This document shows, piece by piece, positions 904 through 42,579 of a stretch of 42,579 nt of DNA. The translations under genes and the position numbers were made by a program. The DNA is from Prorocentrum cordatum (taxonomy: Eukaryota), in NCBI GenBank assembly GCA_963575745.1, contig CAUYUJ010000292.1:620001-662579 (forward strand), read 5' to 3'. The notes under the pieces were generated by a model that saw nothing but the letters and a program-made list of their open reading frames with translations, did no database searches and was not told the origin of the DNA. Each line of letters begins with the position of its first letter. Position 1 is the first letter of the stretch.

Positions 904-1764
904 CTCGGAATGCGGTTACATGTTCCTCCTGCTCCTGGTGCTCTTCCTCCGACTCCTCCGCATCCCCCCTCCTTCGCCTGCTCCTTTCCCCCCCACACAC
1001 ACACCTCTTCCCCCCCCCCATCCTCCTCCTGGAGCCCCTGTCCGTTCTTCTAGCTCCTCGCTCCGCGGGTCCTGCTGCGCGCTTCCAACTCATCCTCCCA
1101 TGCCCCGCGCTCCTCCTGCTCTCGTGCCCTCCGTCTCCTCCTCGTCCCGCTTGTCCTCCTATGGCAAGTGGGTTGTTCGTCCGCCTTCTCCTCCTCTTCT
1201 CGCTGCTGCGGCTACTGCTCGTCCACACACCTCAAGCACACTACCTCAGTGGAGACAAAGAACATACAAGCATAAAGAAGTGCACGTATATTAGAACCCA
1301 ATATGCAACATCCAAACGATCCTGATTCGACACGCCTGCTCCTCCTTCTCTTACTCCTCCTCGTCCTCCTCCTCCTCCTTCTCCTGCTTGCCTCCTCTAT
1401 TTGTTCTCCTCCCCGTCCATATCCTCCCTTCCACCTTGGTCTATTCCTGCTCCTCCCTCCTTCCTGCCTCAGTTTGCTCCTCTTCTCCCAGGCCGTCCTC
1501 GTCCCTCACTCGCTTCCTTTCTGCTCCTCCTCATCTCCTCCCTCTCTCTCAGGGGAAACAATGAGGAACCGATGATGCTACTTCGCTGACGTCTTCCAAG
1601 GTGCGTTCTGACTAGAATTTCGAGGAAAATCTAGCCGTGGGGACGAGGACCTCCCAGACAGGCAGAAATGAGGGGAGGGGAGAGGAGCGGTATCAGGACT
1701 ATTTCCTCCTCTGACTCTCCTCCTTTTCAACCTCCCTCCCTCCCTCGTTCCCCCCTGCCCCCAC

Positions 1765-1870
1765 CCTCCTCCTCCTCCTCCTCCTCCTCCTCCTCCTCCT
1801 CCTCCTCGTCCTGCTCGTCCTGCTCGTCCTCCTCCTCCTCCTCCTCCTCCTCCTCCTCCTCCTCCTCCTC
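1765..1870. repeat. (CCT)n tract
   Basis: Read directly from the sequence. Confidence 0.95.
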
Positions 1871-1923
1871 CCTCTCCCACCCCTCCTCCTCCCCCGAACG
1901 CCCAGGACGACGCGCAATGCTGC

Positions 1924-1994
1924 CTCGAAGTGCTCCCGGAGCTCCGCTGCGGTGGCGTTCTGCGGCAGCCCCCCCACGAAGAGCTTGTTCGTGC
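1924..1994 (-). CDS. RRM protein exon (RRM2 start: (G)TNKLFVGGLPQNATAAELREHFE)
   Basis: Contains the RNP2 motif LFVGGL. Acceptor CCCAG|GC (phase 1), donor GAG|GC. Both phases match the neighbouring exons. Confidence 0.93.
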
Positions 1995-2167
1995 CTGGGA
2001 AAAGCCCACTTCGGGAGGGAGTCAGGGGTCTCGTAAACAATGAAAGAAGTCCACTCGGATTTCCCGGACCGGCATTCCCCAAAAAGCTCCAAGAGCATCC
2101 CCAAGACAACCCCCAGAGGGTCAAACAATTGCTCCTTTCAGCTCAACAAAAAGTTGTCGAATGTTTT

Positions 2168-6780: not shown

Positions 6781-6805
6781 AGTCTCGTGGAGGGCGGGGC
6801 GGCGC

Positions 6806-6916
6806 CGAGGCGTCCGCGTAGGTCACGTACCCGAAGCCCCTGGAGCGGCCGTCTGGCCACTGCAGCACCACGGCGTCCGCCACGGCGCCGAACCGCGAAA
6901 AGTACCCCCTCAGGTC
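6806..6916 (-). CDS. RRM protein exon (RRM1: DLRGYFSRFGAVADAVVLQWPDGRSRGFGYVTYADAS)
   Basis: Contains RNP1 RGFGYV. Acceptor CGCAG|GAC, 111 nt, putative GC donor. Confidence 0.93.
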
Positions 6917-6973
6917 CTGCGGGGGAGAGCCCAGTGCCTAGGCAACGACCCCTGGCCCACGACGGCCCCTGCT

Positions 6974-7105
6974 TCTCCTCCTCCTCCTCCTCCTCCTCCT
7001 CCTCCTCCTCCTCCTCATATTCCTCCTGCTTCTCCTCCTCCTTTTCCTCCTCCTCCTCCTCCTTTTCCTCCTCCTCCTCCTCCTCCTCCTCCTCCTTCTC
7101 CTCCT
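6974..7105. repeat. (CCT)n tract
   Basis: Read directly from the sequence. Confidence 0.95.
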
Positions 7106-8586
7106 TGTCCTCCCTGTCCTCCCTCCTACGCGAGGAGTGCCCTCTCATGTCCTTCAGGGGGAGCCCGGTGCCCACTAGTTAGGGCTCGAATACCTCAATA
7201 CCTCGGGGCCGGATGCTTCAATCAATCGTCACCTGGGCACCCGAGACTATTGAGGGCCCACCCCAAGATCGTTCATTGGTCACCCTGGAACCCTTGAGGT
7301 ACTCAGAAGTATTTTTGAGATGCCCAGGCAATGCCCCCTGAGAGCCTGGCGTGGCAATGTTTGCACATCGGGCGTTTTTGCCAGGTTTCGGGCCACCCGG
7401 GACCCTCGCAGATCGATCCGGCTCGGCAAATTATGCAGAACAAGGGACGTCCGGGGTTCCGGTGGCGATTTTCTACGATGTTAGAAGTTTTTCGCAACGT
7501 CGGATCTCAGGGCCAGTCCGATGACCAGGCATCACTAGGACGATGCCTAGGCACATGCTGCGTCCAGCTGCGGCCCGCGACGTCCGTGGGCGCAGCCCTC
7601 GAAGCATGCGTGGGCATATCCGTGCGGACGCCTAGGCATCAGCAGTGCCATGCCTAGGGCCACGCCCAGGCATCCTGCGCGCGATGCTATGATGATACGA
7701 GGCTGGCACCCCGATCCCCGATCAGTCGTTTCCCTTCCGTTTTGCCATGGCTTCCACACACTCCTTCTACAGTGTGGGGGGGGGTCAGGGTAGTGCTTGG
7801 GAGGAGAGCGAGCGGACCGACCCGAAGGAAGAGAGCAAAAGCAGCGAACGGCTTCTCGCTGGCTCTCCCATGGCTCGCAGCGGCGCCTCCCGAGACGGCG
7901 GGCGCCAAAACTGCACGAGCGCCTGCGCTGCAGGCCTGCGTGCCGCCACGCTGGGCCCCGGCGAGGGAGAAGCAGGCCAACGACGACGAACGCGCAAGCG
8001 GGAGGCCTGGCCCCGGCGGGCATGGACAGGGGCTGGGCGAAGGCGGCAGGTTGCCTGGGTGCTGCCTGCCTGATCTGCTCCGCAAAGAGCACGAGTTCGG
8101 AGCCGACGAACATCGAGACCCTCCTCGCCTGAGGCCTTGGGGGGGAAGAAGAGGATGAGCAAGAAAGAGGAGGAAGGGGGAGCAGCTGCAAGCCGGCGGG
8201 CCTGGTAAGGGGCAGGGAAAGGGCCACGCGCCAGGAGGCCACGGACACTACGGCGGCGGCCCGACCAGGCGGCGCAGGTGGAGGAAGTACTGGAAGGGAT
8301 GGTGGTTGCCGGGCTCGTCGTGCTGGGCGTGGGGCTGGGCGTGGAGCGAGGCGAAAGGGCTGGGCGTGGAACTGGGCGAAGGGGCTGGGCGTGGGGAAAG
8401 GCGTCCAGAAGGGGGGAGTGCCTGACCGAACCCAGCAAGCAGCGGCATGGCGGGGAGCCCCCCGCGGGATCCAGCCACCGCCCCGCCGACAGGAAGGGGC
8501 TGCAGGGGCGCGACGCCCCTGCAGGGGCGCGTGGGGGTGCTGCGCGCTGCTCAGCAAGGGCGACGGGCGTGGGCGGGAGGGAGTTC

Positions 8587-8778
8587 TCCTCCTCCTCCTC
8601 CTCCTCCTCCTCCTCCTCCTGCTCCTCCTCCTCCTCCTCCTCCTCCTCCTCCTCCAGCTCCAGCTCCAGCTCCAGCTCCAGTTCCTCCTCCTCCTTTTCC
8701 TCCTCATCCTCTTCCTCCTCTTCCTCATGCTCCTCCTCCTCCTCCTCCTCCTCCTCCTCCTCCTCCTCCTCCTCCTCC
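8587..8778. repeat. (CCT)n tract with (CTCCAG)n
   Basis: Read directly from the sequence. Confidence 0.95.
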
Positions 8779-8929
8779 ATAAGCATCGCCCAAGGCGCCT
8801 CACACAGCGTCCGCCACGGAGGCCGCCGTGGCCGTGGCCCAGCGGGCTGGGCGGGTGGGCGCCGGCCACCCGCGTGTAAGCGGCCTCCTCCTCCTCTAGC
8901 CTGCTAGGGTCAGCCCCGGTTCTTGGCTT

Positions 8930-10658
8930 GCGGGCCCCTCAGATCCGCCCTGGAAAACGCGTGCCTCTCCTGCGGTGCAGTAGCTGTCTGAACAGCCGAA
9001 GCACATTGTCCAGCTCCGTCCGATGCACCCTGGCATAGGCTTGCCAGACCTCATCTGTGTAGTCTCAGACGGTCGTTAAAAAAGCACCCGCCTCGTAGCT
9101 CCTTTGGTCCATCATCAAGATTGAACTTTGCGGACTGCACCTGTTGATACCACTCTGGCGCAAATCCTGACGGCCACCTCGACCTTGCGCTTACCGCACC
9201 ATTCCATTCCAATTTCGTGATCCTCGACTGCTTCTTCTCTGAGGTCCCAGAGATATATGGTGCTCCAGGTTGACAAGTCCTGTAGAAATTAGCGCCTGAC
9301 TCTGGTTGGGTCAGGCGGGGCTGCAGGCAGTGACCCTAGTGGTGGCCTGTCCATGTCAGAAGGCTCACCCCTACTCGAGTCCTCCAGCACGCTTTGTAAA
9401 AGAGTGGGCCTACGGTCCTTGCGTGCAACCGCAACCCTGGCTGCTGCGATGATCTTCACATATCTTCACGACCCATGCCCCGTCTGGATCAAGATGTGGA
9501 TCGTCCTTGGATCCTGCTTCAACCTGTTCTGCTGGGGGCCCAGCTGGTGTATTGGAGCAGGCTTAGCAGTAGAACGAGCACTGCCGCTGCCGCTGCCTTC
9601 CACAACACCCAGGGAGGATGCCGCTTATTCTGGTCATTCATGTTTGCGGGGGCGCTTTGCTGCCAATCGTTGCCGCACCTCCACTACTTACTGCCGTATA
9701 ACCTGGATGTTACCCGCCGTGGGGCCGATGACGTCGACGATGCTTTGTTGCACTTCCTTCCCAATCTGCACTCTGAGCTTGTCCTACTTTTTCGGTTATG
9801 AGTCTTCCACTTCCAGGCCTGAGAAGTCCACGATGTCGCCAGCAATGTTCTCGACTGCTTCACTGCTATTACGTATCTCCGAGCAGCTGCGACAGGTTGA
9901 TACTCTTGGTGCCTTTGGGCGAGGAGTCTCCCGAGCTTCCTTGCACTCAGCCAACCACTGCGCTGCCTCACCCTCCTGCGCGACATAGCTTTCGAGGTGT
10001 GGGTGCGCCCTGCGGCGCGCAATAGCCTTGGCCGAGTTGACGGTCTCCAGCAACTGTTTTTGCGGCTGCGGGGCGAGGATCTGAACGACAAGGTTCTCCA
10101 GGGCCTTGAGTTCAGTCGCCCCCTGGTCACCCAACCTCCCCCTGAGCTGCTCCGACACGTCCGACATGGGAATGGTTGATGCATTCTGCGCTGGAGCCGC
10201 ACTGGGGGGTGGAGTGGATATCTTGGGTGGAGTGCCCCACCCTGGTACATCACTGCATTGCCTGTTCCCTGCCCGGCGTCTGGGTCGATCTGCCACCGCC
10301 TGCACCTTATCCTTGATTGAGCCCAGACACCTCGGGTTGGCGCATTTATCCAAGGCGTCTCCTGTGGCACCAGGGTTGCATTGCAGCGGCCCTCGTTTTC
10401 CGATTCTACATGTACCTGCACGCTGAGCAAGTGAGAAAATCTTTAGCATTCTTGCCCATGGGCTCCGACAGGCGCTCACACAGCGACGAGAGCGCTCTCA
10501 GCACAGGAATTTACGCTAGCAGAGCCTCCGAGCAGGGCGCAAATGTGAGCATCATGTGAAACAGGCCTCAGAGATTTCTGGCAGGGGCGCGCCTCACCCC
10601 TTACCAGACCCAAATCGCTGAGCCTCATTGCTCAGGACTTGAGCAAAAATGGCTACGG
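8930..10658 (-). mobile_element. Decayed SL-capped retroposed insert, LINE ORF1-like pseudogene; 3' end approximate
   Basis: SL, then about 180 nt, then ATG at 10459: MGKNAKDFLTCSACRYM*NRKTRAAAMQPWCHR (CxxC). A frameshift leads into a Pro-rich then helical/coiled-coil frame ending ...VRQRLAAKRPRK, with several stops. The sequence is complex and less GC-rich than its flanks. Confidence 0.6.
10638..10658 (-). other. Genomic relic of the dinoflagellate spliced leader (DinoSL)
   Basis: The minus strand reads CCGTAGCCATTTTTGCTCAAG versus DinoSL CCGTAGCCATTTTGGCTCAAG (20/21 identical). Confidence 0.93.
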
Positions 10659-10760
10659 GCTCGTTATCCTCCTCTTCCTCCTCCTCCACCTCCTCATCAT
10701 CATCCTCCTTCTCCTTCTCCTCGTTCTCCTTCTCCTCGTTCTCCTCCCTCCCCCCTTCTC

Positions 10761-10820
10761 CTGCGTAGTCGTGGTGCTGGGAAGGCCACCGATGAAGATC
10801 TTCCGGGGGTGGCAGTGGTC
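10761..10820 (-). CDS. RRM protein exon (RRM1 start: DHCHPRKIFIGGLPSTTTTQ)
   Basis: Contains RNP2 IFIGGL. Acceptor GGAG|GAC, donor CAG|GA, 60 nt, phase 0 at both ends. Confidence 0.92.
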
Positions 10821-11607
10821 CTCCAGGGCGGCGCCAAGGGCGGCGAAGCGGAGTCGGGGCAACGATGAGGTGGCTGAGACCGGCCCAAACCGCTTTGCGA
10901 TTGTATACGGGGGGGGGGTTAGGGGGACGAGTTGAGGAGGAGGATGAGGAGGAGACGCATAAAGAGGAGGGCGACGATGACAGCGCACACCTACGGAGCC
11001 AGCGTCAGGACCCCCCACGCACGCAGGACTGGAGGAGGAACATGAGGCGGAGGAGCAAAGAAGGAAGACCATCATCAGAAGGAAGATGCTTGTTGGTTTC
11101 AGCGGCGGTCAGCCACTCATTACGCGAGAGACAGGAGACGATGAGGTAGTAGAAAACGGGCAGACGGAGGAGACAACCGGGGGAGAAAGGGGGATAGGAG
11201 GAATATGGGAAGCAGGTTGAGGGTAGGAGGAAGAGAAGGAGGGCCCTGATGGGGAGAAAAAGAGGAGCGGGAGGAGGAGAAGCAAGTAAGAGCTGCGAGG
11301 AGGGCAGGAGGAAGAGGACCAGGATTACCCCTCCCCCCAGCCACAAACGCAAGCAATCATCTACCAGTCGTATACCTGCGGTGATCCAGGCACGGGACTG
11401 GCGCGCGTCCAAACACAAGCTGACACACCGGCAACAACGGGAAGGAGGAGGAGGATCCGCAAGAGGAGAGGCAGGAGGAGCTCCTGGTAGCGAGGAGGAT
11501 GGACGGGCGGAGGAGCGCGAGAAAGAGAGGGAGAGAGAGAGAGAGAGAGAGAGGGAGAGGGGAGCAGGATGAGGGGGAGGACGAGGCCGCCGATGAATGC
11601 AGCGCTC

Positions 11608-11698: not shown

Positions 11699-12356
11699 CT
11701 GCGACGGCGACGGCGACGACGCCGACGACGACGAAACCGACCACGACGCCTCCTCATCCTCTCGATGCTGCGCTGCTCCTGGTTTGCCTATGGGTCCTCC
11801 CCTGCCTCCTCCTGATCTCAGAGAGAGCGCCTTTCACGGGCGCTTGCCTTGGGAACATTCGGCGGCGCGTTTCGAACTGGGGGGGCGCCCCCCCCCCAAC
11901 ACTCAGCGCCGTCGATCAGAACCAGGGGGACTCCCCTTCCCCCTAACCCCCTCCCCTCTCGAACCCCCCCCCTCTCCCAAGGGGCGGGGGGGTCCAAAAC
12001 CCGCCCCCCCTCCCCTGGCGCCGGCGCCAGCGCTGGCGGCCGCCGTATACCGCCAACGCAGCGACGATGACCAGAGAGAGCCCAGGAGGGGAGGGGGGGT
12101 TCAAACCCCTCCCCCTCCCCAACCCCCGCGCCAGCGCCGGCGCCGGCGCTGGCGGTGGTCAGCAGCGCCGACTTCGGAGACGCAGCGACGATGACCAGAG
12201 AGGGCCTAGAGGCCGCAGAGGGAACACACAAATCGCCATATCGAGCCCACGCATGCTCCTCAGACACCCCCGAGACCCTTCTGACGAGACCTCAAGAGGC
12301 AGCCATTAGGACTCTGACCCTTTGCCAAAACACAGTGGCGGGAAGAGCCGAAGGCC

Positions 12357-13135
12357 ACACCACCACCACCTCCGCCACCACAGACCACCATACCACCACC
12401 ACCACCGCCACCACCACAACCACTACCATAACCACCACAACCCACCATCACCACAACCACCACCATCACCACAAACCACCACCACCACCACCACCACCAC
12501 CACTACCACCACCACCACCACCACCACCACCACCACCAAAAACGCCACCACCAGCAACACCACGACCCACCACAACCCACCACAACCACCATCACCAGCA
12601 CCACAAACCACTACAACATTAACACCACCACCACCGCCACAACCACCACCATCACCACAACCCACCACCAACACCACCACCACAAACACCACACAACCAC
12701 CACAACCACCACCACCATCCACCACCCATCACCCACCACCACCACCACCACTCCTACCAGCAGCAGCACCGCCACCACCAACACCACAGCCCATCACCAC
12801 CACCACCACAAACCACCACGCCACCACCACCACCACCAACACCACCACAACCACCATCATCACCACCTCAACCCGCCACCACCACAACCACCAAACCACA
12901 ACACAACCAACACCACCACCACAGCCACCACCACCACCACAACAACTCACCACCATCACCATCACCAATACAACAACCCACCACCACTACCACCACCATC
13001 ACCACAGTCTACCACACCACCAACACCGCCACAACCACCACCACTACTACCGCAATACAACCCACCACCACCACCACCACAACCACCACAAACCACCTCA
13101 CCACCACCACCACCACCGCCGCCGCCACCACCAGC
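12357..13135. repeat. Degenerate (ACC)n tract
   Basis: Read directly from the sequence. Confidence 0.95.
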
Positions 13136-13929
13136 ACCCCCGCCGCCGCCGCCAGCCGCCGCCGACGCCGGCGCGGGCCCGAGGAAAGGGAGAGAGGAGA
13201 AGTAGGGGAAGGGGGGGGAGGGGGTGGGTGCGAACCCCCCGCCCCCCCTCCATCCATGGGGGGGGGGTCCGATTCCAAACCCCCCAAGCGACCACAGAAC
13301 GCCCTCTTTCTGATCTCACATCCTCCTCTTACTCTCCGGCTCCTCCTCCTTCTCCTCCTCCTCCTTCTCCACCTCGTCATCCAACTCTCCGTGCCGCTCC
13401 TCGTGGTCATTCCCCTCCCACCTTCTCCCTCCCCCTGGTCAAACTTTTTCCCCTCCTCCTCCTCTTCCTCCTCCTCCTCCTCCTCCTCCTCCCTGACCCT
13501 CCTCAATTATCCTCCCTCTGCAAATCACCCAAAGAGTGGCGGATTGGACTTGCACATGTTTCCCAACCCAGGATCTGGCCTGAATGAAAAGAGGGAGAGA
13601 GAGCGAGAGAGAGAGAGAGAACAAACAAGTGAGAGATAGAAAGAGTAAACAAAACATATATGTAATCAGGATCTGAGGATCTGGCCTGTATGGCCTTTCC
13701 GAACTTTCTCCCCCCCTCCCCTCCTCCCCCTCTTCCTCCAACTCACCCTCCTCATCTTTCCGCTTCTCCAACCTAGTCCACCCCGTCCTCCCCGTCCCCA
13801 CCCGCCCTCCTCCGCGCCCTCCTCCTGCGGCGCCCTCCCTCCTCGTGGTCCTCCTTTTCCTCGAGACCCTCTCCTTCCCGCCCGCCCCCCCTCCCCCTCT
13901 CCCTGGCGTTTATGATGTTTGTGTGTTTA

Positions 13930-14255
13930 TCTCTCTGTTTCTCTCCCTCTCTCTCTCCCCCTCTCTCTGCCTCTCTTGATTACGGTTTCGCTTGCTTTCT
14001 CTCTCTCCCTCTCTCTCTTTCTCTTTATATATCTCGCGCTTTGTTTTTGTGTTTGGGCTGGTTCCCTCTCTCTCTCTCTCGCTCTCTGTATCTCTTGGTT
14101 CTGGTTCGTTTTGAGATCCCTCTCTCTCTCTCTCTTTTTGTGTATGGTATCTCCCTCTCTCTTGCTTATGGTTAGTGTTGCTCTCTCTCTCTCTATACTG
14201 GCGCTTATTTGTTTTGTTATCTCACTCTCTCTCTCTCTCTCTCTTTCTCGAAAGG

Positions 14256-14289
<34 letters not shown>

Positions 14290-14592
14290 CAGAGAGAGAG
14301 AGAGAGAGGAAGAAAGAGAGAGAGAGAGAGAGGGAGAGAGAGAGAGAGGGAGAGGAGGCGGGGAAAGAGGAGGAGGAGGAGGAAGGAGGAGGAAGGAGGA
14401 GGAGGAGGAGGGAGGGAGGGAGGAGGAGGAGGAGGAGGAGGAGGAGGAGGAGGAGGAGGAGGAGGAGGAGGAGGAGGAGGAGGAGGAGGAGGGGGAGGGA
14501 GGAGGAGGAGGAGGAGGAGGATGAGGGAGGAGGAGGAGGAGGGAGGGGAGGAGGAGGAGGAGGCAGGAGCAGGAGGAGGCAGGAGGAGGAGG
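13930..14592. repeat. Compound (CT)n, (GA)n, (GGA)n tract
   Basis: Read directly from the sequence. Confidence 0.95.
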
Positions 14593-14698
14593 ACAAGGCG
14601 GACGAGCCCCGTCTCCCTCCCTCCCTCCCCGCGGCCCCCGCCTGCCCCTCGCGCCGCCCCGCGCGCCCCGGGCGCCCTCGTGGCGCGCGGCGTCCCTC

Positions 14699-14787
14699 CT
14701 GTCCTGCCCAGGCGCCATGCGCTCCGCCTTCGAGAGGGCCTCCGCGGCAGCCCCGCAATGCTTGGAGGCCACGCCTAATGCGAGGGC
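14699..14787 (-). CDS. Probable RRM protein exon (ALALGVASKHCGAAAEALSKAERMAPGQD); alternative acceptor at 14774
   Basis: Non-repetitive island between microsatellites. The donor GACAG|GA (phase 2) joins to 11698. Acceptors CGAG|GCC or TTAG|GC. Confidence 0.62.
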
Positions 14788-14841
14788 CTCGGGTCTGAGC
14801 CGAACGGCTGCCGGGCACGACATGCCCACAGCACGCGCGGC

Positions 14842-14904
14842 GCACACACACACAGGCACACACGCGACACACGCGCGACACACGCGCGACACACACACAC
14901 ACAG

Positions 14905-14935
<31 letters not shown>

Positions 14936-15263
14936 CGGCACACACACACGTACGCGATACACACATACGCGATACACACACGACGCACACACACACACAC
15001 GCACGACACACGCACACATACACACACGACACACACACACACACGAACCCACGCACGCACGCACGCATACACGCACGACCCACACACACACGAACCCACG
15101 CACGCACGCACGCACACACACACACACACGCACACGACACACGCAAACAGACACACACGCGCACACACAAACGCACACACACACACCACACACCACACCA
15201 CACACATACACGCGACACCCACGCAACACACAAAGACACACAATAAACACACACACACACACC

Positions 15264-15357
<94 letters not shown>

Positions 15358-15460
15358 CAACACACACACACACGCACACACACACACACACACACGCACG
15401 CACACACACACACTGACACACATACACGTGGACACCTACACACGCACACACACACACACA
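14842..15460. repeat. Degenerate (CA)n with an internal (CAA)n at about 15262-15355
   Basis: Read directly from the sequence. Confidence 0.95.
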
Positions 15461-15556
15461 CTTGTTTGGCGTCGCGGCCACGAGTGCGGCGGCGCGGCGC
15501 AGGTCACGTTGAGAGTGAGCGCGCGGGCTGGCCCAGCTCACGCAGCGGGGAGAAGC

Positions 15557-15587
15557 TGGATCCACCCACGGGGCATCGTCATCATCA
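15557..15587 (-). CDS. Possible micro-exon of the RRM gene (DDDDAPWVDP)
   Basis: AG acceptor (phase 2) and GC donor (phase 0) fit the neighbouring candidate exons. The exon is short, so support is weak. Confidence 0.4.
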
Positions 15588-16019
15588 CTCGCGGGGCGGG
15601 GCAGCCGCGAGGGTACAGTCAAAACGTTTATTAAGGACGGGTGGTGAGGACGCAAGACCCTTGGAGGCCGAAGTTGGATTTTTGGGGCGGGGGGCGGCCA
15701 GTGAAAACGGCGAAGGACGGGCCGCAGAGGCAAGGACTCAAGGGTACCCAAGATGAAGGCATGCGTCCTTACTACGCGCGCTGCCTGTAAGGGACGAGGG
15801 GGAAGAGGGGAACCTGGGGAAAAGAGGACATGGAGGAGCAGCGCGGCGGAAAACAGGCCGAAGCGCCAAGCGAGGCTCAGCAGGACTGCGGCCACAGCCA
15901 CCGTTCAGGAAAGAGGGCAGCACGCGGAAGCCTGAGCCGACCAGGGAGCACCCAGGGGGCAGCAGCAAGGCGGACAGGCAGCGCCCAAGCGAGGAGGGGT
16001 AAGGCAACGGCGCAAGGGA

Positions 16020-16297
16020 CACGCGCACGGACGCAAACACAAACATACACAAACACACACGCAAACACACACACAGGCAGACACAAGCACACAGAAGCAC
16101 GCACACAAGCACTTTTACACTTTCTTGGGGCAGTCGCGGCCTCGCACCCGGCGACGAGGCGAAGCAAACACACGCACACACACAAACACACAAACACAAA
16201 TATACACACACTTACCCTTTTCTTGGGGGCGGTCGCGGCCTCGCACGCGGCGGCGAGGCGAAGCAACCACAAGCACGCGCACACACGCAAACACACA

Positions 16298-16340
<43 letters not shown>
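16020..16340. repeat. (CA)-rich tract with an about 60-bp internal duplication (16121 and 16220)
   Basis: TTCTTGGGG..GTCGCGGCCTCGCAC..GGCG.CGAGGCGAAGCAA occurs twice. Confidence 0.9.
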
Positions 16341-16342
<2 letters not shown>

Positions 16343-17621
16343 CAACACTCGACTGGCGTCGGGCATGCTTCAAATGCCGGTCGGTCGTGTGGCCCGTCTT
16401 CTGCCGCGTACCAGTGGTTGCATCATGTGATGTGCTTGCATGTGCGCTGTCCGTACTTCGTAGCAGCGAGGCTACGTGTACGACTGGCGAATACACGATC
16501 TTACCGAGATTGAGGGTTGGAACTCTCCAGATTGGATTCCAATCTCTCGCCGCACGACTCGCAATCGATCCACTATCAATTTGTCAAGTACAATATGGTT
16601 TTCATGTGGTTCAATTAGTCTACGTTGGGCGTGCTGAATCAATAACTCACGCAGGATGCTCAACTTCCCAACCTGTATCTACGCGTGCCTTACATTCGAT
16701 TGCCATTGTTGTTCACAATTGTTTCAAATTGGGCCTGGACACTTGGTTCAACCTGTTTGATACGTTCGACACAGATACTACGCACGTTCGGTTTACATCC
16801 AAGTCAGTCAGGACACAGTCAAGACAGCACCAACATGCCATCTGAGCATCATCGGAATACCATCAACAAATAATCGGGGCACTGCCAAGAAACTGTAGAG
16901 GCACCACCACCACCACTGGGACACAACCAACAAGCCATCCAGATACCACCAGGGCACAATCAACACAACATTGGAGCACAATCGACAGACTGTGAGGAAG
17001 CAATCGGGGCCCTATCGGAATACCACCGACAAACCATCGAGGGCACGCCGACGCCAAAGCATGAGGACACGCCAAACGCCGAACGAGGACGCCCGCCCGG
17101 CGGCGGAGTTGGAATCCTGAGCGCGGCCGCCAGCGCCACGATATCACGCGCACGACTACGCACCCCCGACCCGTCACGCACGACACGCAAGCGAAGCCCG
17201 AAACTGGATCCTCCGATATGAGAGGCAGGAGCTGCATAAACATAAACTTTGGGAGGTCTGCGATGATTCTGGGATCCCCTCCCTGTCGCGCGGAGCGCGC
17301 CAGGGGCGGCGCTGGAGGCGCCGCCGGGGGGCCCAGCGCCGATCCAAGAATCCGCGGGAGCTCCAGGAAAATATGTGTATGCCTTTGTCTGCTCTTCGAG
17401 ATCACAGGGTTTGCCACCCCTACATCCATGAGCACCGTCTAACTGGCCCCCATCCCTATGGGCGTGGCCTGGGCCCACTGGCCAGTTTGCCTCCGTAGTT
17501 GGGGATATGGGCTGTTCCCGTCCGGTCTCGAGAGGTGTATACCCAACTGGGGTGCTGATATTGTAGGGTTCTGGACAGGGATGGGGACGGGGACAGGGGT
17601 CGGTTATTCGATGCTGACTCC

Positions 17622-28683: not shown

Positions 28684-31600
28684 TTTTTTGCAATGCACGG
28701 CAGCCAGGCGCACACCCAAATCGCGAAAGCAAAAAGGCCGGGCGACAGGCTGGCAGTCAAAACACGCGGGCTAAACACCCGCCGAGGGCCACTCGCAGAC
28801 CCCAGGCCTGGGAGGGAGGCCCTTGCGCAGCCGCAGCAGGGCAGTAAGCTGCGCCTTGGTCAGCGCGAAAGGTCCGTGCCTCGCCGCCTCGCACTCCTCC
28901 AGAAGTCGCGAGGGCCTGGAGTCAGCGTAGCGCCCGCAGAGGCTGCAAAAAGTGATGGCACCCTTGCGCCACAAAAAGTGAGAGGCATGCGGCACATGTC
29001 CAGCAATGCCCGTGCCAGGAGGCAAGCGAGAGGGGGGATCAGGCATCCCCAGAGAACGAAAGAGCTGCTCGTCGATGGGCGGCAGCCCCGAGTACGAGCG
29101 CGGCAGCCTGACGCAGACCCGAAGCGCGGGAGCTGCGTCCGCTTCTGGCTCGACCGCAGGCTCGAGAGGCACCTCACCGTCCCCCCCCCCGTCCTCGTCC
29201 GCCCCGTCCCCCTCCCTCTGATGGCCTCGCTGCTGCAGCTCCACGCGGCAGGGAGGCGGGCTAGGCGGCGGCCGCAAGGCCGAGCACGAGGAGCGCAGCA
29301 GGTGGAGGGCGCGGCTCTGAGAACGCCTGACCGATCGGCCACAGCTCTTGCAGCACCAGCCGAACGCGGTCGAGGCAAAGGCATGCTGGGAACGAGCCGC
29401 AAAGCCCGAAAGCAGCTCCTCCCTCCTCTGAGCCCTAGAAACCTTGGGTTTGGTAACCTCACGGCCAGGGCTCTTGGGGGCGGAGGCGGCGGCAGCACAG
29501 AGAGTGGCATTGCGGAGCAGGATGGCCTCGGCCTGCTCCACCAGGTCCAAAGCGCGGCGGGCAACGTCTGGATCAAGCTGAACCTCCTCAGCCCGCTCCT
29601 CGGCGAGCCCATCGGCCACCGCATTGAGAAAAATAGCCTCGGGCAGCACAGAGTGGCCGAGGCGAGCAAACTTAGCTGGGTCCTCGGCAAGATGCGAGGG
29701 CACGTGCAGGAGCGCGAAGCGGCCCTCGCGGGCGTCAAGCAGCGAGAAGAGATCGTGCCAGAGGTCCGCGTGCTCGAGCTTGTAGCAGTGGCGGCGTCCG
29801 CGCGCTATCGCATTCACGTGATTCACGTGGTCGGAATAAAGCTTGACATCGGCAGCAGGGTGGACGGCCCTGACGCACTCCACAATGGCCAGGAGCTCAG
29901 CGCGAGGCACAGTTTGCACAGGACCGTCCACCAAGCCCGTGCAGCCAGAGTCCCAGTCCAAGCCTTGGCCGTCGTCAAGGCGAGCGAAGCTCCACCCCAC
30001 ACGGCGTAGCAAGGGCTGAGACGACCAGGCTCCACCTGCACCGTCGGTAGCGTAGATCCCCCCTGGCAGCGCCCCGACGCCGCAGCGCAGCCAACGATGG
30101 CCACGCTCGTCAGGGGGCGGCGGGAGGTTCAGCCAGGCGAGGGGCACAAGCCCGCGGCACCAGAAAACAGGGAAGCGGTCGATCTCCTCCAACGCCTGAC
30201 TGCGAAGGTGGTTGGAGGAGACCACAGCCTCAGGAGGGGGAGGCACACCGACCGAGAGCGCCCAGTCCCTCTCCATGGAATTGCACATGCATTCCCAGAA
30301 ACGATGACGGCTGGATTCACGGGAGCGGTGGCAGCGCTGGCACAGGTCGTCCGTGCGGTAGCCAGCCTGGAAACGTCGCTCCTCCGTCCAGTAGCCACCG
30401 CATGCAACTAGGCGAACAAGGCTGGCAAGACTGTGCTGGGACTCCTTCTCCAGCCGCTCCGCCAGTGCAGGCGCGTGCTGCCACCAGACGCCCTCCTCCG
30501 CCCCACCCCCGTCAAGATGCTTGGCCGCCTGGCGCCAAACCGCGTTCTCAGCGGTCTGCTCCAGAGCCGCGAGGAGGCTGGTGACGGGGGCGACGGTGGT
30601 GGCGAAAAGCTCCCACTCCTGCCCGTCTGGCTCAACCAACTTGGACAGGGACGGGCACTGCCAGCCAGCAGAAAGGACAGAGGCCTGAAAGGCCGAAAGC
30701 GGGCCGCGCACGAAGTTCCAGCCACGCGCCACACGCTCCAGGGACGCGTCCCATCCTCGCTGGACCTTGGCAGCGAGGCCGTCCTCTCCAAGGACTCGAG
30801 AGTAGAACGCACCTACGATGTGCCGCAGGTACCAGATGGGCGGGTCGCGCCGCGCCCCAAAACTGATGCGAATGGCCACAGTAGCGCACGTGCCGCGCTG
30901 AGGACACTTGCTGGCCAGCCGCGCCTGACCACGAAGCTGCTTCAGCATGGTCGGCGCCAGCCCGTGCACCTCAGGCGCCCACACCGACTTCGGCAGGGCA
31001 TTGGAGACGAAAAGGCGTGAGGCTCGCGGCGCGGACCTGACCAGTCCCGAAATCTTGAGAGCGGCGCGCCTGCCCTTCATGAAACGCTTCTTGCGCACCT
31101 TCACGGAGCGCGAGGCACCGAAAGATGTGTCGTGGCCGAGGTCGCGGGCAACACGAACAGTCCTGAGGCCACCAGCCCCGACCTCGGCCGCCGACGCCCA
31201 CGCGGGCAGCAAGGCGCGGATGGCAGCAGAAGAGGCCATGAGGCCGCACTTTCCCAGGGAAAACTCGCATCGCAGCCTGCGCAGGCCCGTAAAGAGGGCG
31301 CGCAGCACCACTGGAAAGGCCAAGCTGAGCGAGTGCTCAGTGCCGAAAAGGCGGAAGGCGAGATCGTCGATCCACTCCCTCAGGCGCAACCCTGGCACCA
31401 AGGAGTGGGCCGCCTTCAGCGGGGCGTGCAGGTAGGCGCGCGCCTGCGAGACAGCTTGGCCACAGCCGGCGAGGATGCCTCCACCAGGCAAGATACCTGT
31501 GTGCACCTGGCGCTGGAGGGTGAGGAGGCGAGGACCGAGGTAGACGTCGAGGGCGAGAGCGAGGAGGCGGAGAGGGTAGCCTAGATCCTGGGCCGCCGCC

Positions 31601-32798
31601 GCCAAATCAGGCAGGGACACCAGGTCGTAAAACTTCCGAAGGTCGAGCAGTCCGCCCGCAACCTCGAAGCCTCCCAGGAGCGCAAGCTCCCCCTCCAGCT
31701 CGTCCAACCACCCCGCAAGATCGGCCGAGCCGCCCACTGTCTTGTCCCAGGCCCCGTGCTGGTCACGGTCCCAGGCGCCTATCACTGGCTTCCTAATGCG
31801 GCATAGCAACACGTAGCTGAAATTGAGCAAGGCGATGGGCCTCAGGCCTCCATCCTCCTTGTCCAGCAAGGCGATGAGGTTGAACAGCTCTTGAAAGGGC
31901 ACTGTGGCCTCGCGCTCGATGGCCGTCAGAAGGGCCGCGAGCGCATCGATGGCAGCAGGCGGCGCATCCTTGACCAGGCGAGGCGGCATCATGTCAATCC
32001 CCCTCCCCCGACGATCAGGAACGGTCTTTAACGCCCCCCTCACCTGGTCAGGAGAAACAGGCTCGAAGCAGGCTGACGACAGAGCAGCACGGCGGATCCT
32101 CGCGAGGGCCTCCAACGCCTCGGGCCGCGAATGCTTGCACCAGATTGCGTGCCACGAGGCGCCTTCCGCCTCCAGCACGGCAGAGGGCGTGGAGGCAGGC
32201 TCTCCATCCCAGACAGGCTCGGCGCGACAGATTGAGGGAGAATCGCGGAGGAGCCTATGGGCTTTGCTAGCAGAGCCCGCCAAAGCGTCGGACAACCAGG
32301 AGCGCCAGCGCGCACGGGCCGCCGCAGCCGCGCGCTGGGCAGCCTGGACTCCCTGCTCCTTAGCCTCCTCCGCGATTTGCTGAAGGCTGTCGAGCGACAG
32401 CGAGCGAAGCTGGCGGAGCCAAGAGATCCAACGCTCAAGGATCGCTTTCTCCACCGCGTCGTTCGGATCGAAAGGCGGGGGCAGCTGCAGGGCCTCCAGC
32501 CCGCGCATCGTGCTCCAGAACTGCTCACCACAGCGGGCGCGCGGAGTAGAAGGCTCGGAAGGATCCGCCTCGGGATCAGCCAAACGCAGAAGCAAGGAGG
32601 CCTGCACAGCGAGGGCCTGCCAAAAACGGGCATGGCGGTCAGCGAGAGGAGGGCCGTCGCTGGCGCGTGGCACGATGGGGGCGTACTTGAGGCGAGGCTG
32701 CTGGCACCGTCCTACGTACAGAGGCCACTGCGAGCGAGGGATTCCTTTTTTGGCACAGTGCACGAACTCCAGAGCCAGGGCCCACTCCCCGAGCTGGC
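28684..32798 (-). mobile_element. 5'-truncated non-LTR retrotransposon with RT and RNase H
   Basis: Uninterrupted frame of about 1340 aa, short 3' UTR, A6 tail at 28684-28689, and (GGA)n on both sides. No endonuclease is present in the retained part. Confidence 0.93.
28771..32798 (-). CDS. ORF2 fragment: reverse transcriptase, Zn finger, RNase H, C-terminal Cys/His motifs
   Basis: RT motifs GRGID, K.DGGLRPIAL, LDLRKFYD, GILAGC and WIDD (31363-31374). Zn finger CQRCHRSRESSRHRFWEC. RNase H motifs TDGAG, QTVPRAEL, YSD, ADLW, HVPSH and NAVADGLA. Confidence 0.92.
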
Positions 32799-33207
32799 AA
32801 GGAGGGGGATGAGGGGGAGGAGGAGGAGGAGGAGGAGGAGGAGGAGGAGGAGGAGGAGGAGGAGGAGGAGGAGGAGGAGGGAGGAGGAGGAGGAGGGAGG
32901 AAGAGGAGGAGGAGGATGAAGGAGGAGAGGAGGAGAAGGAGGAGAAGGAGGAGGAGGAGGAGGAGGAGGAGGACGAGGGAGGAGGAGGAGGAGGAGAGGA
33001 GGAGGAGGAGGAGGAGGAGGAGGAGGAGAAGGAGAAAGAGGAGGAGGAGGAGCAGGAGGAGGAGGAGGAAGGAGGGGGAGGAGGAGGAGGAGTAGGAGTA
33101 GGAGTAGGAGGAGGAGAACTCCTGCTGACATCCGCTCCTGACCGTATGCTCATGCCGATGTCCCCCACGGCAACGACGACGACGAAGACGACGACGAGGA
33201 CGAGGAC

Positions 33208-33247
<40 letters not shown>
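32799..33247. repeat. (GGA)n then (GAC)n tracts on the 5' side of the retrotransposon
   Basis: Read directly from the sequence. Confidence 0.95.
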
Positions 33248-34063
33248 CTTTCTCTCATTCTGACGGGGAGGGGTCGCCCCCCCTGCCTGTCTTGAGGTGA
33301 GTGTGCGGCGAACCGATATCATTCTAGGCAGCTCACGGGAGCCTCCCATGTCATCCTGCTGGCTCCTGCGAACCGACGCTGGCCGGAGCCAATCGACGCC
33401 AAGTCGGCGCTGCATCGGCGCTTTATCCCATCGATCACCTAGGCGCTGGCACGCGCCAGGGCACTCTGCAGGCGGACGTCGGAGGACACGTGCTGCTCCC
33501 ATTGGGTCACTGCAGAATGCTCCGATGGTCGCCCCGGTAGGGGAGCTCGGAGTCGAATCGATCTGCGCGGTCGGCCGTCGAAGCAAATCGGGATCGGCGG
33601 AAGTCGGCAGCGGAGTCGCGAGAAGTCGAACCGGCGGACTCTGGCAGGCGAATAGGCCTCCACAGAAAAATCGGAATCCAAATCGGAAGCCGAAGCCGCA
33701 GCCGAATCGGAATCGGAATCCATCGAAATCGAATCGAATCGATTCGGAGGAATCGGAATGAGCCCTGCTTGGCGGCGTGCACAGTGGGGCAGGGGGAGTT
33801 TGGGGAAGGCTGTTGCATGGAAGGCGCCAGCCGCCTTACATCTATAGGCAGGGCCAGCACCTTCTCAGAAGCGCGGTAAGGACGCAAGAGCCTTGGACGC
33901 CCATGCCGAGGCTCTTCGAGCGGGGCTGGCCATCGAAAGTGGCTGAGGACGGACCGAGGATGACCGAATAGGCAAGGGTGCAAGGTGTACCCTGGGGGAG
34001 GCGATCATCCTCACTGTCGGGGTTGACAGTGACCCCTCTGCGCGTGGCTGAGATGAGAGCTGC

Positions 34064-36822: not shown

Positions 36823-37648
36823 CTGAAGGAGCCCGTGGGGGCCTATAAAGCCTTGGGCCCCTCGTCGGCCCTAGACCGTCTCAGACCTCCTAACTAGAGC
36901 AAAACAAGAGGGCGATACACTAGGCTCAACCCTCCCAATCTGCGTTCAAACATGTAGGTACATGCTTAGTGGACGCTAAGGGCACAATCTGCAAACAATT
37001 ATGCGCATCGCGTGCTCACTGTGCCGTGCTAGGTACGACGTACATGTGTGAGACAATGAACGTTATGCTACACCACCGTGCAATGTGGCCGCGCTCACAT
37101 GTCCCAGAGAGCAGGAATCTTAGCCGAAGTAGTCCAGGCTGGGCGGGGATGAGACCGTCCTGGACGGGGCGGGTGGTACAGCTCGATCCTGACGGACAAA
37201 GCTAATTCCACCCCGAACGCATAAGCGTAGGCTGAATCAGAACACTGACGTCAATCGAGACCTCAGAAGGCAGCGCGGCTGCCGCGCCTCAGATCCCGAG
37301 ACTGCACCATCACTCCAAGAAGTCCAGCAACCAGGCAGCTCAAGGCAGGAGTGATCCCGTGGAGCTCGGAAGTGCCAGAGGTGAGCGATGGTACGGTGCG
37401 CTCTGAGGCAAGTTATGGCCAAAGCCAGGTTGGTATGTACACGTATATCCACTGATATCAATAGTATATTGGTGAGTGGTTGGTGTAGGTGAGGGCATGC
37501 ACAGGGCGCATCACCCAGCCGCCTTCACAGAGGCCGAAGCGACTGGACATACTGGATAATACTAGATAGTATTCCATCCAATCAAAGACATTCAAAGACA
37601 TTGAATTGATGCAAGCTCGGATCCACAGATATTGCAAACCCGTTCGTT

Positions 37649-42347: not shown

Positions 42348-42505
42348 GAGGAGACGGATTCCTGCGGGTGGAGGTAAGAAAGGGTAGGAACAGCAGGCCA
42401 GCCTAGTCCTACCGCCCCGCCTGATGTCAACCTCCGCCCGTGAGATGTACGGTGTGGCAGGTGTGGTAGGAGCTCCTGCTGTGCTGAAAGCCACAGCAGT
42501 TCCTA

Positions 42506-42579
42506 GGGGGAGGAGGAGGAGGAGGAGGAGGAGGAGGAGGAGGAGGAGGAGGAGGAGGAGGAGGAGGAGGAGGAGGAGG
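42506..42579. repeat. (GGA)n tract running off the window end
   Basis: Read directly from the sequence. Confidence 0.97.

What the first reader, a model, noticed from the sequence alone, without database searches (positions are those of the whole stretch)
8930..10658. Spliced-leader-capped, LINE-ORF1-like retroposed insert inside an intron
Seen: a 21-nt near-perfect DinoSL (1 mismatch) marks the 5' edge of an about 1.7-kb complex-sequence insert. It is followed about 180 nt later by an ATG encoding a CxxC-containing N-terminus, then a Pro-rich linker and a coiled-coil-like region ending RLAAKRPRK, now broken by stops and a frameshift. Established: DinoSL is added to mRNAs by trans-splicing, and genomic SL relics mark reverse-transcribed mRNAs. 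Inference: the protein layout resembles a non-LTR ORF1. That would mean a retrotransposon RNA was SL trans-spliced and re-integrated with its 5' end complete, so SL addition defines the element's 5' end.
Basis: partly seen in the sequence, partly recalled or inferred. Interest (0 to 1): 0.82.

Follow-up and report, generated by a model that had tools for sequence, protein, structure and literature searches.

The report
Spliced-leader-tagged retrocopy pseudogene in an intron
An intron of a dinoflagellate gene holds a decayed, reverse-transcribed copy of a messenger RNA that still carries the spliced-leader tag and comes from a small, uncharacterised zinc-finger protein family; such copies are common in these algae, and nothing found here shows that it is a jumping gene of its own.

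Summary
On the minus strand a DinoSL 21-mer with one mismatch (10658-10638) opens a 1.73-kb insert of lower G+C. The insert lies between GAG/CCT low-complexity arrays, inside an inferred 3.8-kb GA..AG intron of an RRM gene on the same strand. After 178 nt comes an ATG (10459) and a broken reading frame with at least 4 frameshifts, 4 premature stops and a damaged zinc finger.

The frame belongs to a real, dinoflagellate-only protein family. I found four Prorocentrum cordatum proteins, one ENA protein and two metagenome contigs. The layout is an N-terminal CxxC..CxxC finger, a Pro-rich linker, long helices and a basic KRxR tail.

The retrotransposon-ORF1 reading is not supported:
- The family has no ORF1, APE or RT signature.
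- No RT lies next to the insert.
- There is no poly(A) tail and no clean target duplication.

One lead remains. Both metagenome contigs start with the DinoSL and carry a conserved second ORF of unknown kind directly after the first.

Best reading (0.75): an ordinary SL-tagged processed pseudogene, a well-known dinoflagellate feature. The retroelement reading stays at about 0.13. Interest is low to moderate.

The parts
10638..10658 (-). DinoSL relic: 21 nt with 1 mismatch (G to T). The preceding base, 10659, is C.
   Evidence: 0 of 100 shuffles matched. It is followed by TCCTGAGC, not a GT donor, so it is not an SL RNA gene exon.
10460..10637 (-). 5' UTR of the retrocopied mRNA, 178 nt.
   Evidence: The last bases, GAGCCC before the ATG, correspond to the 'EP' read in front of the internal Met in P0004 and P0005. 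It is otherwise unrelated to the UTRs of L001 and L002. A metagenome contig of about 89% identity covers 10417-10490.
9634..10459 (-). Broken reading frame of the zinc-finger / coiled-coil family, from ATG 10459 to stop 9636-9634. It has at least 4 frameshifts and 4 premature stops, and the third Cys of the finger is lost.
   Evidence: tblastn with P0001: 99 of 294 identical, joint E 1e-38 for two pieces in two frames, plus the N-terminus in a third frame. One search gives frames and stops. One search shows that 9919-9875 matches 'PTGSQINLSQLLGE' in another frame.
8930..9633 (-). 3' part of the insert, identity unknown. It may be remnants of the protein's Ala/Pro-rich tail, a 3' UTR, or a truncated second ORF. 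No poly(A) tail.
   Evidence: G+C stays at insert level down to about 8950. No Pfam hit for 9051-9335(-). No similarity to the second ORF of L001 and L002. No A-run on the minus strand.
10667..10747 (.). Low-complexity (TCCTCC)n array, which is GAG-rich on the gene strand. It is intron DNA just 5' of the insert.
8586..8778 (.). Low-complexity (CTCCTC)n array, intron DNA 3' of the insert. A short GAGGAGGAGGAGG run abuts the insert at about 8887-8899.
   Evidence: The only repeats shared by the two flanks are GAGGAGG-type words.
6917..10760 (-). Inferred host intron of 3,844 nt, GA..AG, which contains the insert. The insert makes up 45% of it.
   Evidence: Read. The exon '..PRKIFIGGLPSTTTTQ' ends at 10761 and the exon 'DLRGYFSRFGAVADAVVLQWPDGRSRGFGYVTYADAS' starts at 6916. 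Joined, they give a continuous RRM. No transcript evidence.
6795..6916 (-). Host RRM exon containing RNP1 (the exon's 3' end is approximate).
   Evidence: Pfam RRM_1: 23.3 bits (cut-off 20.7), profile positions 13-49 of 70.
10761..10811 (-). Host exon end carrying the RNP2-like KIFIGGLP (the exon's 5' limit was not determined).
   Evidence: Read by eye. It is too short for Pfam (no hit).

Best explanation
The insert is a processed pseudogene. A mature mRNA, trans-spliced to the spliced leader, from a dinoflagellate-specific gene family was reverse-transcribed by an enzyme supplied in trans and integrated into GAG/CCT low-complexity DNA. The family encodes an N-terminal RanBP2-like CxxC..CxxC finger, a Pro-rich linker, long helices and a basic KRxR tail. 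The integration site lies inside an intron of an RRM gene, in the same orientation. The copy was never maintained and has since decayed.

Shown:
- the SL at the exact 5' edge;
- colinearity of the insert with cDNA-like relatives;
- family membership;
- the disabling mutations.

Inferred:
- that the surrounding DNA is an intron (from RRM continuity);
- that the reverse transcriptase came from a retroelement such as the RT-like ORFs elsewhere in the window;
- that cDNA synthesis was primed on a GAG-rich stretch of the RNA by the CCT-rich target strand, which would explain the missing poly(A) tail and the position in a GAG/CCT array.
For: - SL relic at 10658-10638(-), beyond chance. It is followed by a UTR, not by an SL-gene intron, and there is no Rfam family in 8500-11000.
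- An exhaustive phmmer search of 1.84 billion representatives found 3 relatives (E 9e-8 to 3e-6). A search with P0001 found 3 proteins besides the query itself. Four of these proteins are Prorocentrum cordatum proteins on four different contigs.
- The window copy aligns to them over the whole protein without intervening sequence, but across three frames and through stops.
- Two metagenome contigs of the family begin with the DinoSL. L002 has the full 21-mer with 0 mismatches at bases 2-22. L001 starts with the SL's last 12 nt. The family's mRNAs are therefore SL-capped like other dinoflagellate mRNAs.
- ORF1 of these two contigs evolves under purifying selection (dN/dS 0.34 over 400 codons), so the family encodes a working protein.
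- SL-tagged retrocopies are a documented, abundant feature. About 22-23% of Symbiodinium genes carry DinoSL relics (PMC6050394 passages; PMC5585692 passages).
- The window's G+C of about 0.61 and the nearest relatives fit a Prorocentrum-like genome. P. cordatum has 59.7% G+C (PMC10666404 passage).
Against: - There is no poly(A) remnant and no target-site duplication beyond GAGGAGG words, so two classical marks of LINE-mediated retroposition are absent or unreadable.
- No parent gene was identified. The nearest proteins are only 30-36% identical, and the source genome was not available.
- About 700 nt at the 3' end are unexplained.
- Several features of the family are also what a mobile element would show: near-identical dispersed paralogues (P0003 and P0004 are 89% identical); two gene models in which the family core starts internally behind unrelated N-termini; and a conserved second ORF right after ORF1 in L001 and L002.
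Confidence: 0.75

Rival explanations
1. The family is the ORF1 of a so far undescribed dinoflagellate retroelement. Its bicistronic RNA receives the SL by trans-splicing. Full-length reverse transcription then puts the SL at the 5' end of each new copy. The window copy would be a dead, 3'-truncated member.
For: - The layout is ORF1-like in function: a putative nucleic-acid-binding finger, long helices predicted with pLDDT of about 81-93 over residues 141-200 of the model, and a basic tail.
- 3 of 3 copies with visible upstream sequence start with the SL.
- 2 of 2 contigs that extend past ORF1 have a second frame (+1) opening within 5 nt of the ORF1 stop. Its 51 shared codons score BLOSUM 176, against 97 and 89 in the other frames (which contain stops). 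It has no indel, and dN/dS is 0.41.
- The paralogues are dispersed, near-identical, and partly embedded in chimeric gene models.
- RT-related genes with DinoSL relics are implied in Symbiodinium (the GO term 'RNA-dependent DNA replication' is enriched among retrogenes, PMC5585692 passage). SL-containing retrotransposons were suggested in Schistosoma (PMC5832876 passages).
Against: - No RT, APE or known ORF1 signature was found in any family member or in the 251 visible residues of ORF2.
- The ORF2 model is all-helical and then disordered, not an endonuclease fold, but its confidence is low (pLDDT 55).
- No longer protein related to ORF2 was found.
- The window's 3' part shows no similarity to that ORF2.
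- The RT-like ORF in the window (P0008) is unrelated to the family and to ORF2.
- Multi-ORF transcripts are reported for ordinary P. cordatum genes (PMC10666404 passage), so two ORFs on one RNA is not TE-specific here.
- No stacked relic SLs follow the SL in the window, in L001 or in L002. Repeated cycles would usually leave them, unless the terminal AG of the relic is re-used as acceptor.
Confidence: 0.13
2. The copy did not arrive here by retroposition. It is either a DNA-level duplicate (segmental or ectopic) of an older retrogene, or a still-active nested retrogene whose apparent defects are assembly errors.
For: - Dinoflagellate genomes duplicate genes heavily at the DNA level.
- There is no poly(A) tail and no target duplication to prove insertion at this site.
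- A 243-nt metagenome contig is 100% identical to 9681-9923, so at least that part of the sequence is reproducible.
Against: - The unit's 5' boundary coincides exactly with the first SL base against unrelated low-complexity DNA. That is what direct integration of a capped RNA copy predicts.
- Four substitution-type stops, a lost Cys codon and an internal deletion cannot all be indel-type assembly errors. The identical metagenome contig covers three of the stops (9798, 9786, 9690).
Confidence: 0.07
3. The 21-mer is a chance match or part of an SL RNA gene.
For: None beyond the sequence itself.
Against: - 0 of 100 shuffles gave a match.
- There is no GT donor after the SL, and a family 5' UTR and ORF follow instead.
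- There is no Rfam hit.
Confidence: 0.01

Closest known systems
DinoSL-relic retrogenes and processed cDNA 'recycling' in dinoflagellates. Sources: Slamovits and Keeling 2008, as cited in PMC6050394; Song et al. 2017, PMC5585692; PMC12014239; PMC7245778. I saw passages of all four PMC papers.
   Same: A genomic DinoSL sits directly in front of a UTR and coding sequence, marking an mRNA that was reverse-transcribed and re-integrated. The phenomenon is abundant across dinoflagellates.
   Different: Published surveys focus on expressed, intact retrogenes, which are often found through SL-plus-relic stacks in transcripts. This copy is dead, intronic, carries a single full-length SL, and comes from an uncharacterised family. 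No poly(A) tail or target duplication is readable.
LINE-1-type ORF1p (coiled coil + RRM + CTD; Pfam Transposase_22) and other non-LTR ORF1 classes with CCHC knuckles, PHD or esterase domains. This classification is recalled from memory, not from a call.
   Same: A small protein with a putative nucleic-acid-binding module, long helices and basic regions. In two contigs it is followed at once by a second ORF.
   Different: No sequence or fold match to any ORF1 class was found. The finger is a RanBP2-like CxxC-x11-CxxC at the N-terminus. There is no RRM/CTD in the model, and no RT is shown downstream.
SL-associated non-LTR elements SLACS, CZAR, CRE and NeSL-1 of trypanosomatids and nematodes (recalled from memory, not from a call).
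   Same: Retroelement copies whose 5' end abuts spliced-leader sequence.
   Different: Those elements insert site-specifically into SL RNA genes, so they are flanked by SL-gene DNA. Here the SL is complete and flanked by intron low-complexity DNA, which fits a trans-spliced RNA template.
SL-containing retrotransposon copies suggested in Schistosoma mansoni (PMC5832876, Discussion passages).
   Same: The idea that a trans-spliced retroelement RNA is reverse-transcribed, so that the SL becomes genomic.
   Different: It is only a suggestion there, with assembly artefacts named as the alternative. The phylum and the SL are different.
RanBP2-type zinc fingers (ZRANB2, Nup358, Mdm4).
   Same: Four-Cys ribbon with W/N between the pairs. 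UniRef names P0005 'RanBP2-type domain-containing protein'. The weak Foldseek rows are 7mns_B, 2k1p and 2cr8 (E 6-9).
   Different: Spacing is one residue longer than the pattern I recall. There is no Pfam zf-RanBP hit at E up to 1. The fold evidence is far below significance.

Membership tests
DinoSL-tagged retrocopy (processed pseudogene) | Genomic DinoSL directly at the 5' edge of UTR plus CDS | tested here: met
   (1 mismatch in 21, 0 of 100 shuffles matched).
DinoSL-tagged retrocopy (processed pseudogene) | Homologous expressed gene family exists, and the copy is colinear with mRNA-like sequences | tested here: met
   The direct parent gene and its intron structure could not be examined because no genome is held.
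DinoSL-tagged retrocopy (processed pseudogene) | Poly(A) remnant at the 3' end | tested here: not met
   No A-run on the minus strand near 8930 or anywhere in 8900-9640. This is not required in dinoflagellate surveys, which define retrocopies by the SL alone (PMC6050394 passages).
DinoSL-tagged retrocopy (processed pseudogene) | Target-site duplication | tested here: inconclusive
   Only GAGGAGG-type words are shared between the flanks, and these are the local repeat.
Pseudogene | Frame-disrupting mutations relative to intact relatives | tested here: met
   At least 4 frame changes, 4 premature stops, a lost Cys and an internal deletion. Three of the stops lie in a stretch reproduced 100% by an independent metagenome contig.
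Non-LTR retrotransposon ORF1 (L1-type, Transposase_22, or CCHC/PHD/esterase classes) | Significant match to an ORF1 family model | tested here: not met
   No Pfam family reached its cut-off at E up to 1 for the window frames or for the 7 homologues. The PDB profile search gave only noise at E 0.26.
Non-LTR retrotransposon ORF1 (L1-type) | Coiled coil followed by RRM and C-terminal domain | tested here: inconclusive
   The AF2 model of P0001 has long helices at 135-202 and 258-311 but no beta-rich domain. Mean pLDDT is only 58.7. The fold searches list only generic coiled coils.
Autonomous non-LTR retrotransposon | ORF with endonuclease and reverse transcriptase directly downstream of ORF1 | tested here: not met
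   This holds for the window copy. There is no APE or RT signal in 8930-9633, and none in 89 of 90 scanned ORFs except two distant, unrelated elements. For L001 and L002 the second ORF is present, but its 251 visible residues match nothing. That part is inconclusive.
Autonomous or non-autonomous retroelement family | Many dispersed copies sharing both termini | not testable with these tools
   No source genome is held. Only 4 annotated P. cordatum proteins, 1 ENA protein, 2 metagenome contigs and 2 short metagenome contigs of about 89% identity were seen.
SL RNA gene | SL exon followed by a GT donor and an Sm-site intron | tested here: not met
   The SL is followed by TCCTGAGC and a 178-nt UTR. 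No Rfam match.
RanBP2-type zinc finger | Match to the zf-RanBP model or fold | tested here: inconclusive
   No Pfam hit. UniRef gives that name to P0005. The Foldseek rows have E 6-9.

The most novel reading that the evidence does not exclude
The zinc-finger / coiled-coil family is the first ORF of an undescribed, dinoflagellate-specific bicistronic retroelement. Its RNA is capped by SL trans-splicing, so the 22-nt leader becomes the defined 5' terminus of every new genomic copy. If the relic's terminal AG is re-used as trans-splice acceptor, the leader would regenerate precisely at each cycle. The second ORF seen in L001 and L002 would be the still unrecognised N-terminus of its replicase or endonuclease protein. 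The window insert would be a dead, 3'-truncated member.
Probability: 0.13. Interest if true: 0.7.

Novelty: new member of a known kind. Interest (0 to 1): 0.27.

Why it matters
As it stands, this is one more example of the SL-tagged retrocopies that fill dinoflagellate genomes. It is useful mainly as a clean, datable case of full-length reverse transcription into an intron.

The small added value is twofold:
- It defines an uncharacterised, lineage-specific protein family: finger, helices, basic tail.
- It flags that SL-initiated contigs of this family carry a conserved second ORF.

If that second ORF proved to encode a replicase, it would identify a retroelement that uses the host's trans-splicing to define its 5' end. 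It would also give a candidate for the still unknown machinery behind dinoflagellate retroposition. The reviews I read leave that question open (PMC6050394 and PMC5585692, passages).

Tried and rejected
- Sequencing runs: no RNA holder is listed. Only one metagenome study holds 14% of the words. Laying three runs gave one identical 243-nt contig and a few short pieces under 90% identity; the SL region and most of the insert had no cover.
- Protein searches: the near-length word search with the window frame found nothing. The search for longer relatives of ORF2 found nothing.
- ESM Atlas: no usable hit for P0001 or P0006.
- Other collections: viral contigs and genome contigs held no relatives of the family or of ORF2.
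- PDB sequence searches returned only noise.
- Fold searches: the P0001 model gave nothing at E up to 0.001 and only generic coiled coils at Z up to 7.1. The ORF2 model gave nothing at E up to 0.001. Both models have low confidence.
- NCBIfam and PADLOC gave nothing meaningful.
- ORF2 of L001/L002 against the window: no similarity. A by-eye resemblance ('QDP', 'W.LR..M..C') was rejected because the spacing differs (266 nt against 75 nt) and tblastn does not find it.
- P0008 (RT-like ORF) against the insert, L001/L002 and ORF2: no similarity.
- Other SL relics in the window: none, with the 21-mer, 15-mer or 13-mer.
- Inverted repeats or a target duplication around the insert: none beyond low complexity.
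- Prokaryote-type promoter and terminator scan: irrelevant and empty.
- Earlier findings of this scan: nothing on this genome, this sequence or this theme.
- Literature: six of the seven full-text searches combined terms such as DinoSL, dinoflagellate, spliced leader, relic, retroposition, retrotransposon, trans-spliced, trans-splicing, reverse transcriptase, non-LTR and ORF1; none was made for the protein family itself. None returned a paper describing an SL-capped non-LTR element in dinoflagellates. I did not open any supplementary tables. Those of PMC5585692, PMC12014239 and PMC10666404 could list RT-bearing retrogenes or this family.
- A planned fold of the P0008 RT region was not run.
Full report
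**What is in the sequence**

The feature lies on the minus strand. CCGTAGCCATTTTTGCTCAAG occupies 10658-10638. It has one mismatch to the 21-nt DinoSL core, and none of 100 dinucleotide-preserving shuffles of the window gave any match with up to three mismatches. The base before it is C, where the 22-nt consensus DCCGTAGCCATTTTGGCTCAAG has D (consensus from PMC7245778, passages).

The SL is followed by TCCTGAGC, not a GT donor, and no Rfam family matches in 8500-11000. It is therefore not an SL RNA gene.

From the SL down to about 8930 the DNA is complex. G+C is 0.51-0.63 in the 150-nt windows that start between 8925 and 10575. It is 0.67-0.77 in five of the six windows that start between 8400 and 8850, and 0.62-0.66 in the CCT array at 8550-8774. 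The unit is bracketed by (CTCCTC)n at 8586-8778 and (TCCTCC)n at 10667-10747. Within the window the insert is single-copy; only the flanks match elsewhere.

**Host context**

On the same strand an exon ends '...PRKIFIGGLPSTTTTQ' at 10761. The next open stretch starts at 6916 with 'DLRGYFSRFGAVADAVVLQWPDGRSRGFGYVTYADAS'. The second piece matches Pfam RRM_1 above its cut-off, from profile position 13 onward. The first piece supplies the missing RNP2 by eye.

Joining them requires a 3,844-nt GA..AG intron (10760-6917). The insert begins 101 nt into it and makes up 45% of it. 'Inside an intron' is thus a well-founded inference, without transcript evidence.

**The reading frame**

The ATG at 10459 lies 178 nt after the SL and opens MGKNAKDFLTCSACRY. 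The frame then breaks:
- a W codon has become TAG (10410-10408);
- the third Cys of the finger is gone;
- the homology moves to a second frame near 10400, to a third near 10300, out again for 9919-9875 ('PKGTKSINLSQLLGD') and back at 9861;
- three more stops sit at 9798, 9786 and 9690 (first base of each codon on the gene strand);
- the frame ends 'RQRLAAKRPRKHE*' at 9636-9634.

A 243-nt contig from an unrelated metagenome run is 100% identical to 9681-9923, which includes three of the stops. These stops are therefore not assembly noise.

**The family**

The window frame alone found nothing in the word-indexed search. An exhaustive phmmer over 1.84 billion representatives found three proteins (E 9e-8 to 3e-6). 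Searching with the best of them, P0001, brought the total to five proteins:
- four unnamed Prorocentrum cordatum proteins on four contigs;
- one ENA protein on a 1,426-nt contig.

A scan of metagenome contigs added two loci (2 confirmed of 476 pattern matches).

All seven share the following layout:
- an N-terminal finger of the form [FY]xSCxxCRYRWN[WF]Kx5CxxC;
- a Pro-rich linker;
- the invariant LLE..S..VACRRA block inside a long helix;
- an acidic 'IIDG..LDLS.LE' patch;
- a second helix ending in AKRxR.

The window copy is 30-36% identical to them. It is thus a divergent or old member, not a copy of any protein I could see.

P0004 and P0005 are gene models in which the family core begins at an internal Met behind unrelated N-termini. 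In both, the two residues before that Met are 'EP'. The window also has GAGCCC before its ATG.

No Pfam family reaches its cut-off for any member. A PDB profile search gave noise. UniRef calls P0005 a RanBP2-type domain protein.

The AlphaFold model of P0001 (7-sequence alignment, mean pLDDT 58.7) shows a small, low-confidence ribbon, disorder, and helices at 135-202 and 258-311. It has no beta-rich domain. Foldseek found nothing at E up to 0.001, with RanBP2 fingers among the rows at E 6-9. The wide structural search returned only generic coiled coils at Z up to 7.1.

For three family copies I could see upstream DNA, and all three begin with the SL:
- the window copy;
- L002, with the full 21-mer and no mismatch at bases 2-22 of the contig;
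- L001, whose first 12 bases are the SL's last 12.

Contigs that stop exactly at the SL could be cDNA ends. They could also be assembly breaks at the edge of a repeated unit. I cannot tell which.

None of the three copies continues into a recognisable APE or RT:
- In the window, the 700 nt after the frame match nothing.
- I scanned 89 of the 90 ORFs of 100 aa or more with residue entropy of at least 3.8. The 155 low-complexity ORFs of the 245 found were not scanned. Only RRM_1 passed a cut-off.

With lenient thresholds two retroelement-like regions appear elsewhere in the window, and both are unrelated to the insert:
- An intact 1,515-aa ORF at 28774-33318(-) gives RVT_1 (E 0.071, profile 3-193 of 205), zf-RVT (E 0.00096) and RNase_H (E 0.041) in canonical order.
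- An APE-like ORF at 41270-42169(-) gives Exo_endo_phos at E 0.081.

They do show that reverse transcriptases of non-LTR type are encoded nearby in this genome.

**A lead that keeps the retroelement idea alive**

In both L001 and L002 a second frame (+1) is open right after the ORF1 stop. In L002 it starts with an ATG 5 nt after the stop.

Over the 51 codons the two contigs share:
- this frame scores BLOSUM 176 with 33 identities and no indel;
- the other two frames score 97 and 89 and contain stops;
- dN/dS is 0.41, close to the 0.34 of ORF1 over 400 codons;
- the raw codon-position counts alone are not decisive (14/9/16).

The 251 visible residues match nothing in Pfam, NCBIfam, PADLOC, PDB or the Atlas. 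No longer relative was found. The low-confidence model (pLDDT 55) is helical to residue 145 and then disordered.

Two ORFs on one RNA is suggestive of a non-LTR element. However, multi-coding-unit transcripts are reported for ordinary P. cordatum genes (PMC10666404, passage). In addition, neither contig nor the window shows the stacked relic SLs that repeated retroposition cycles usually leave.

**Mechanism**

The best-supported account is ordinary retroposition. An SL-capped mRNA of this family was copied to its very 5' end and integrated.

The absence of a poly(A) tail, together with the GAGGAGGAGGAGG run at the 3' junction inside a CCT/GAG array, suggests one route. The CCT-rich target strand may have primed cDNA synthesis on a GAG-rich stretch of the RNA. 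This is inference only.

The copy then decayed. The 1-2 changes in the 22-nt SL and the load of stops and indels over about 820 nt are mutually compatible with moderate age.

**Comparison with what is known**

Genomic DinoSL relics as marks of retroposed mRNAs are textbook for dinoflagellates:
- about 22-23% of Symbiodinium genes carry them (PMC6050394, passages);
- retrogenes are found across orders (PMC12014239, passages);
- Song et al. found the GO term 'RNA-dependent DNA replication' enriched among such retrogenes (PMC5585692, passage);
- a schistosome study suggested SL-containing retrotransposon copies (PMC5832876, passages).

I found no paper describing an SL-capped non-LTR element in dinoflagellates or this protein family (full-text searches). 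I opened no supplements.

**Verdict**

It is a new member of a known kind. Interest is 0.27. The retroelement reading keeps about 0.13 probability because of the conserved second ORF and the dispersed, partly chimeric paralogues.

Noticed in passing
window 28774-33318 (-): An intact 1,515-aa ORF (P0008). Scanned in two halves, it gives sub-threshold but colinear RVT_1 (E 0.071), zf-RVT (E 0.00096) and RNase_H (E 0.041) hits. By eye it has RT motifs (LRPIALL, LDLRKFYD, WIDDLAF). It looks like a very divergent, possibly active non-LTR-type reverse transcriptase without an N-terminal APE, and no SL relic is nearby.
   Followed up: partly
window 37458-42579 (-): An APE-like ORF at 41270-42169 (Exo_endo_phos E 0.081; GDLN and IDHYIV motifs by eye) is followed by broken long ORFs (38840-39781, 37458-39041) with no family hit. 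This is probably a decayed LINE whose 5' end runs off the window.
   Followed up: partly
L001 1382-2134 and L002 1383-1550: A conserved second ORF in the +1 frame directly after the family ORF, on two SL-initiated metagenome contigs. It is helical for about 145 residues and then disordered, and it has no known relatives.
   Followed up: partly
window 6917-10760 (-) and 1702-2142 (-): The host RRM gene uses an apparent GA..AG intron. A second RNP2-like 'NKLFVGGLP' about 8.8 kb further down the same strand suggests a tandem paralogue.
   Followed up: no
window 12300-16400: Long stretches of low-complexity sequence: His/Thr/Pro-rich open frames at 12310-13636(+), CA/TG-type arrays and poly-Cys/Val frames at 13930-16400. 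Strong GC and AT skews occur at 12-13 kb and 35-36 kb.
   Followed up: no
window 9681-9923 and 10417-10490: A coded metagenome run holds a 243-nt contig identical to the insert. It also holds two short contigs about 87-89% identical across the start codon and proximal 5' UTR. One of them has a flanking overhang that resembles the window's UTR by eye, which hints at further copies of this subfamily.
   Followed up: partly
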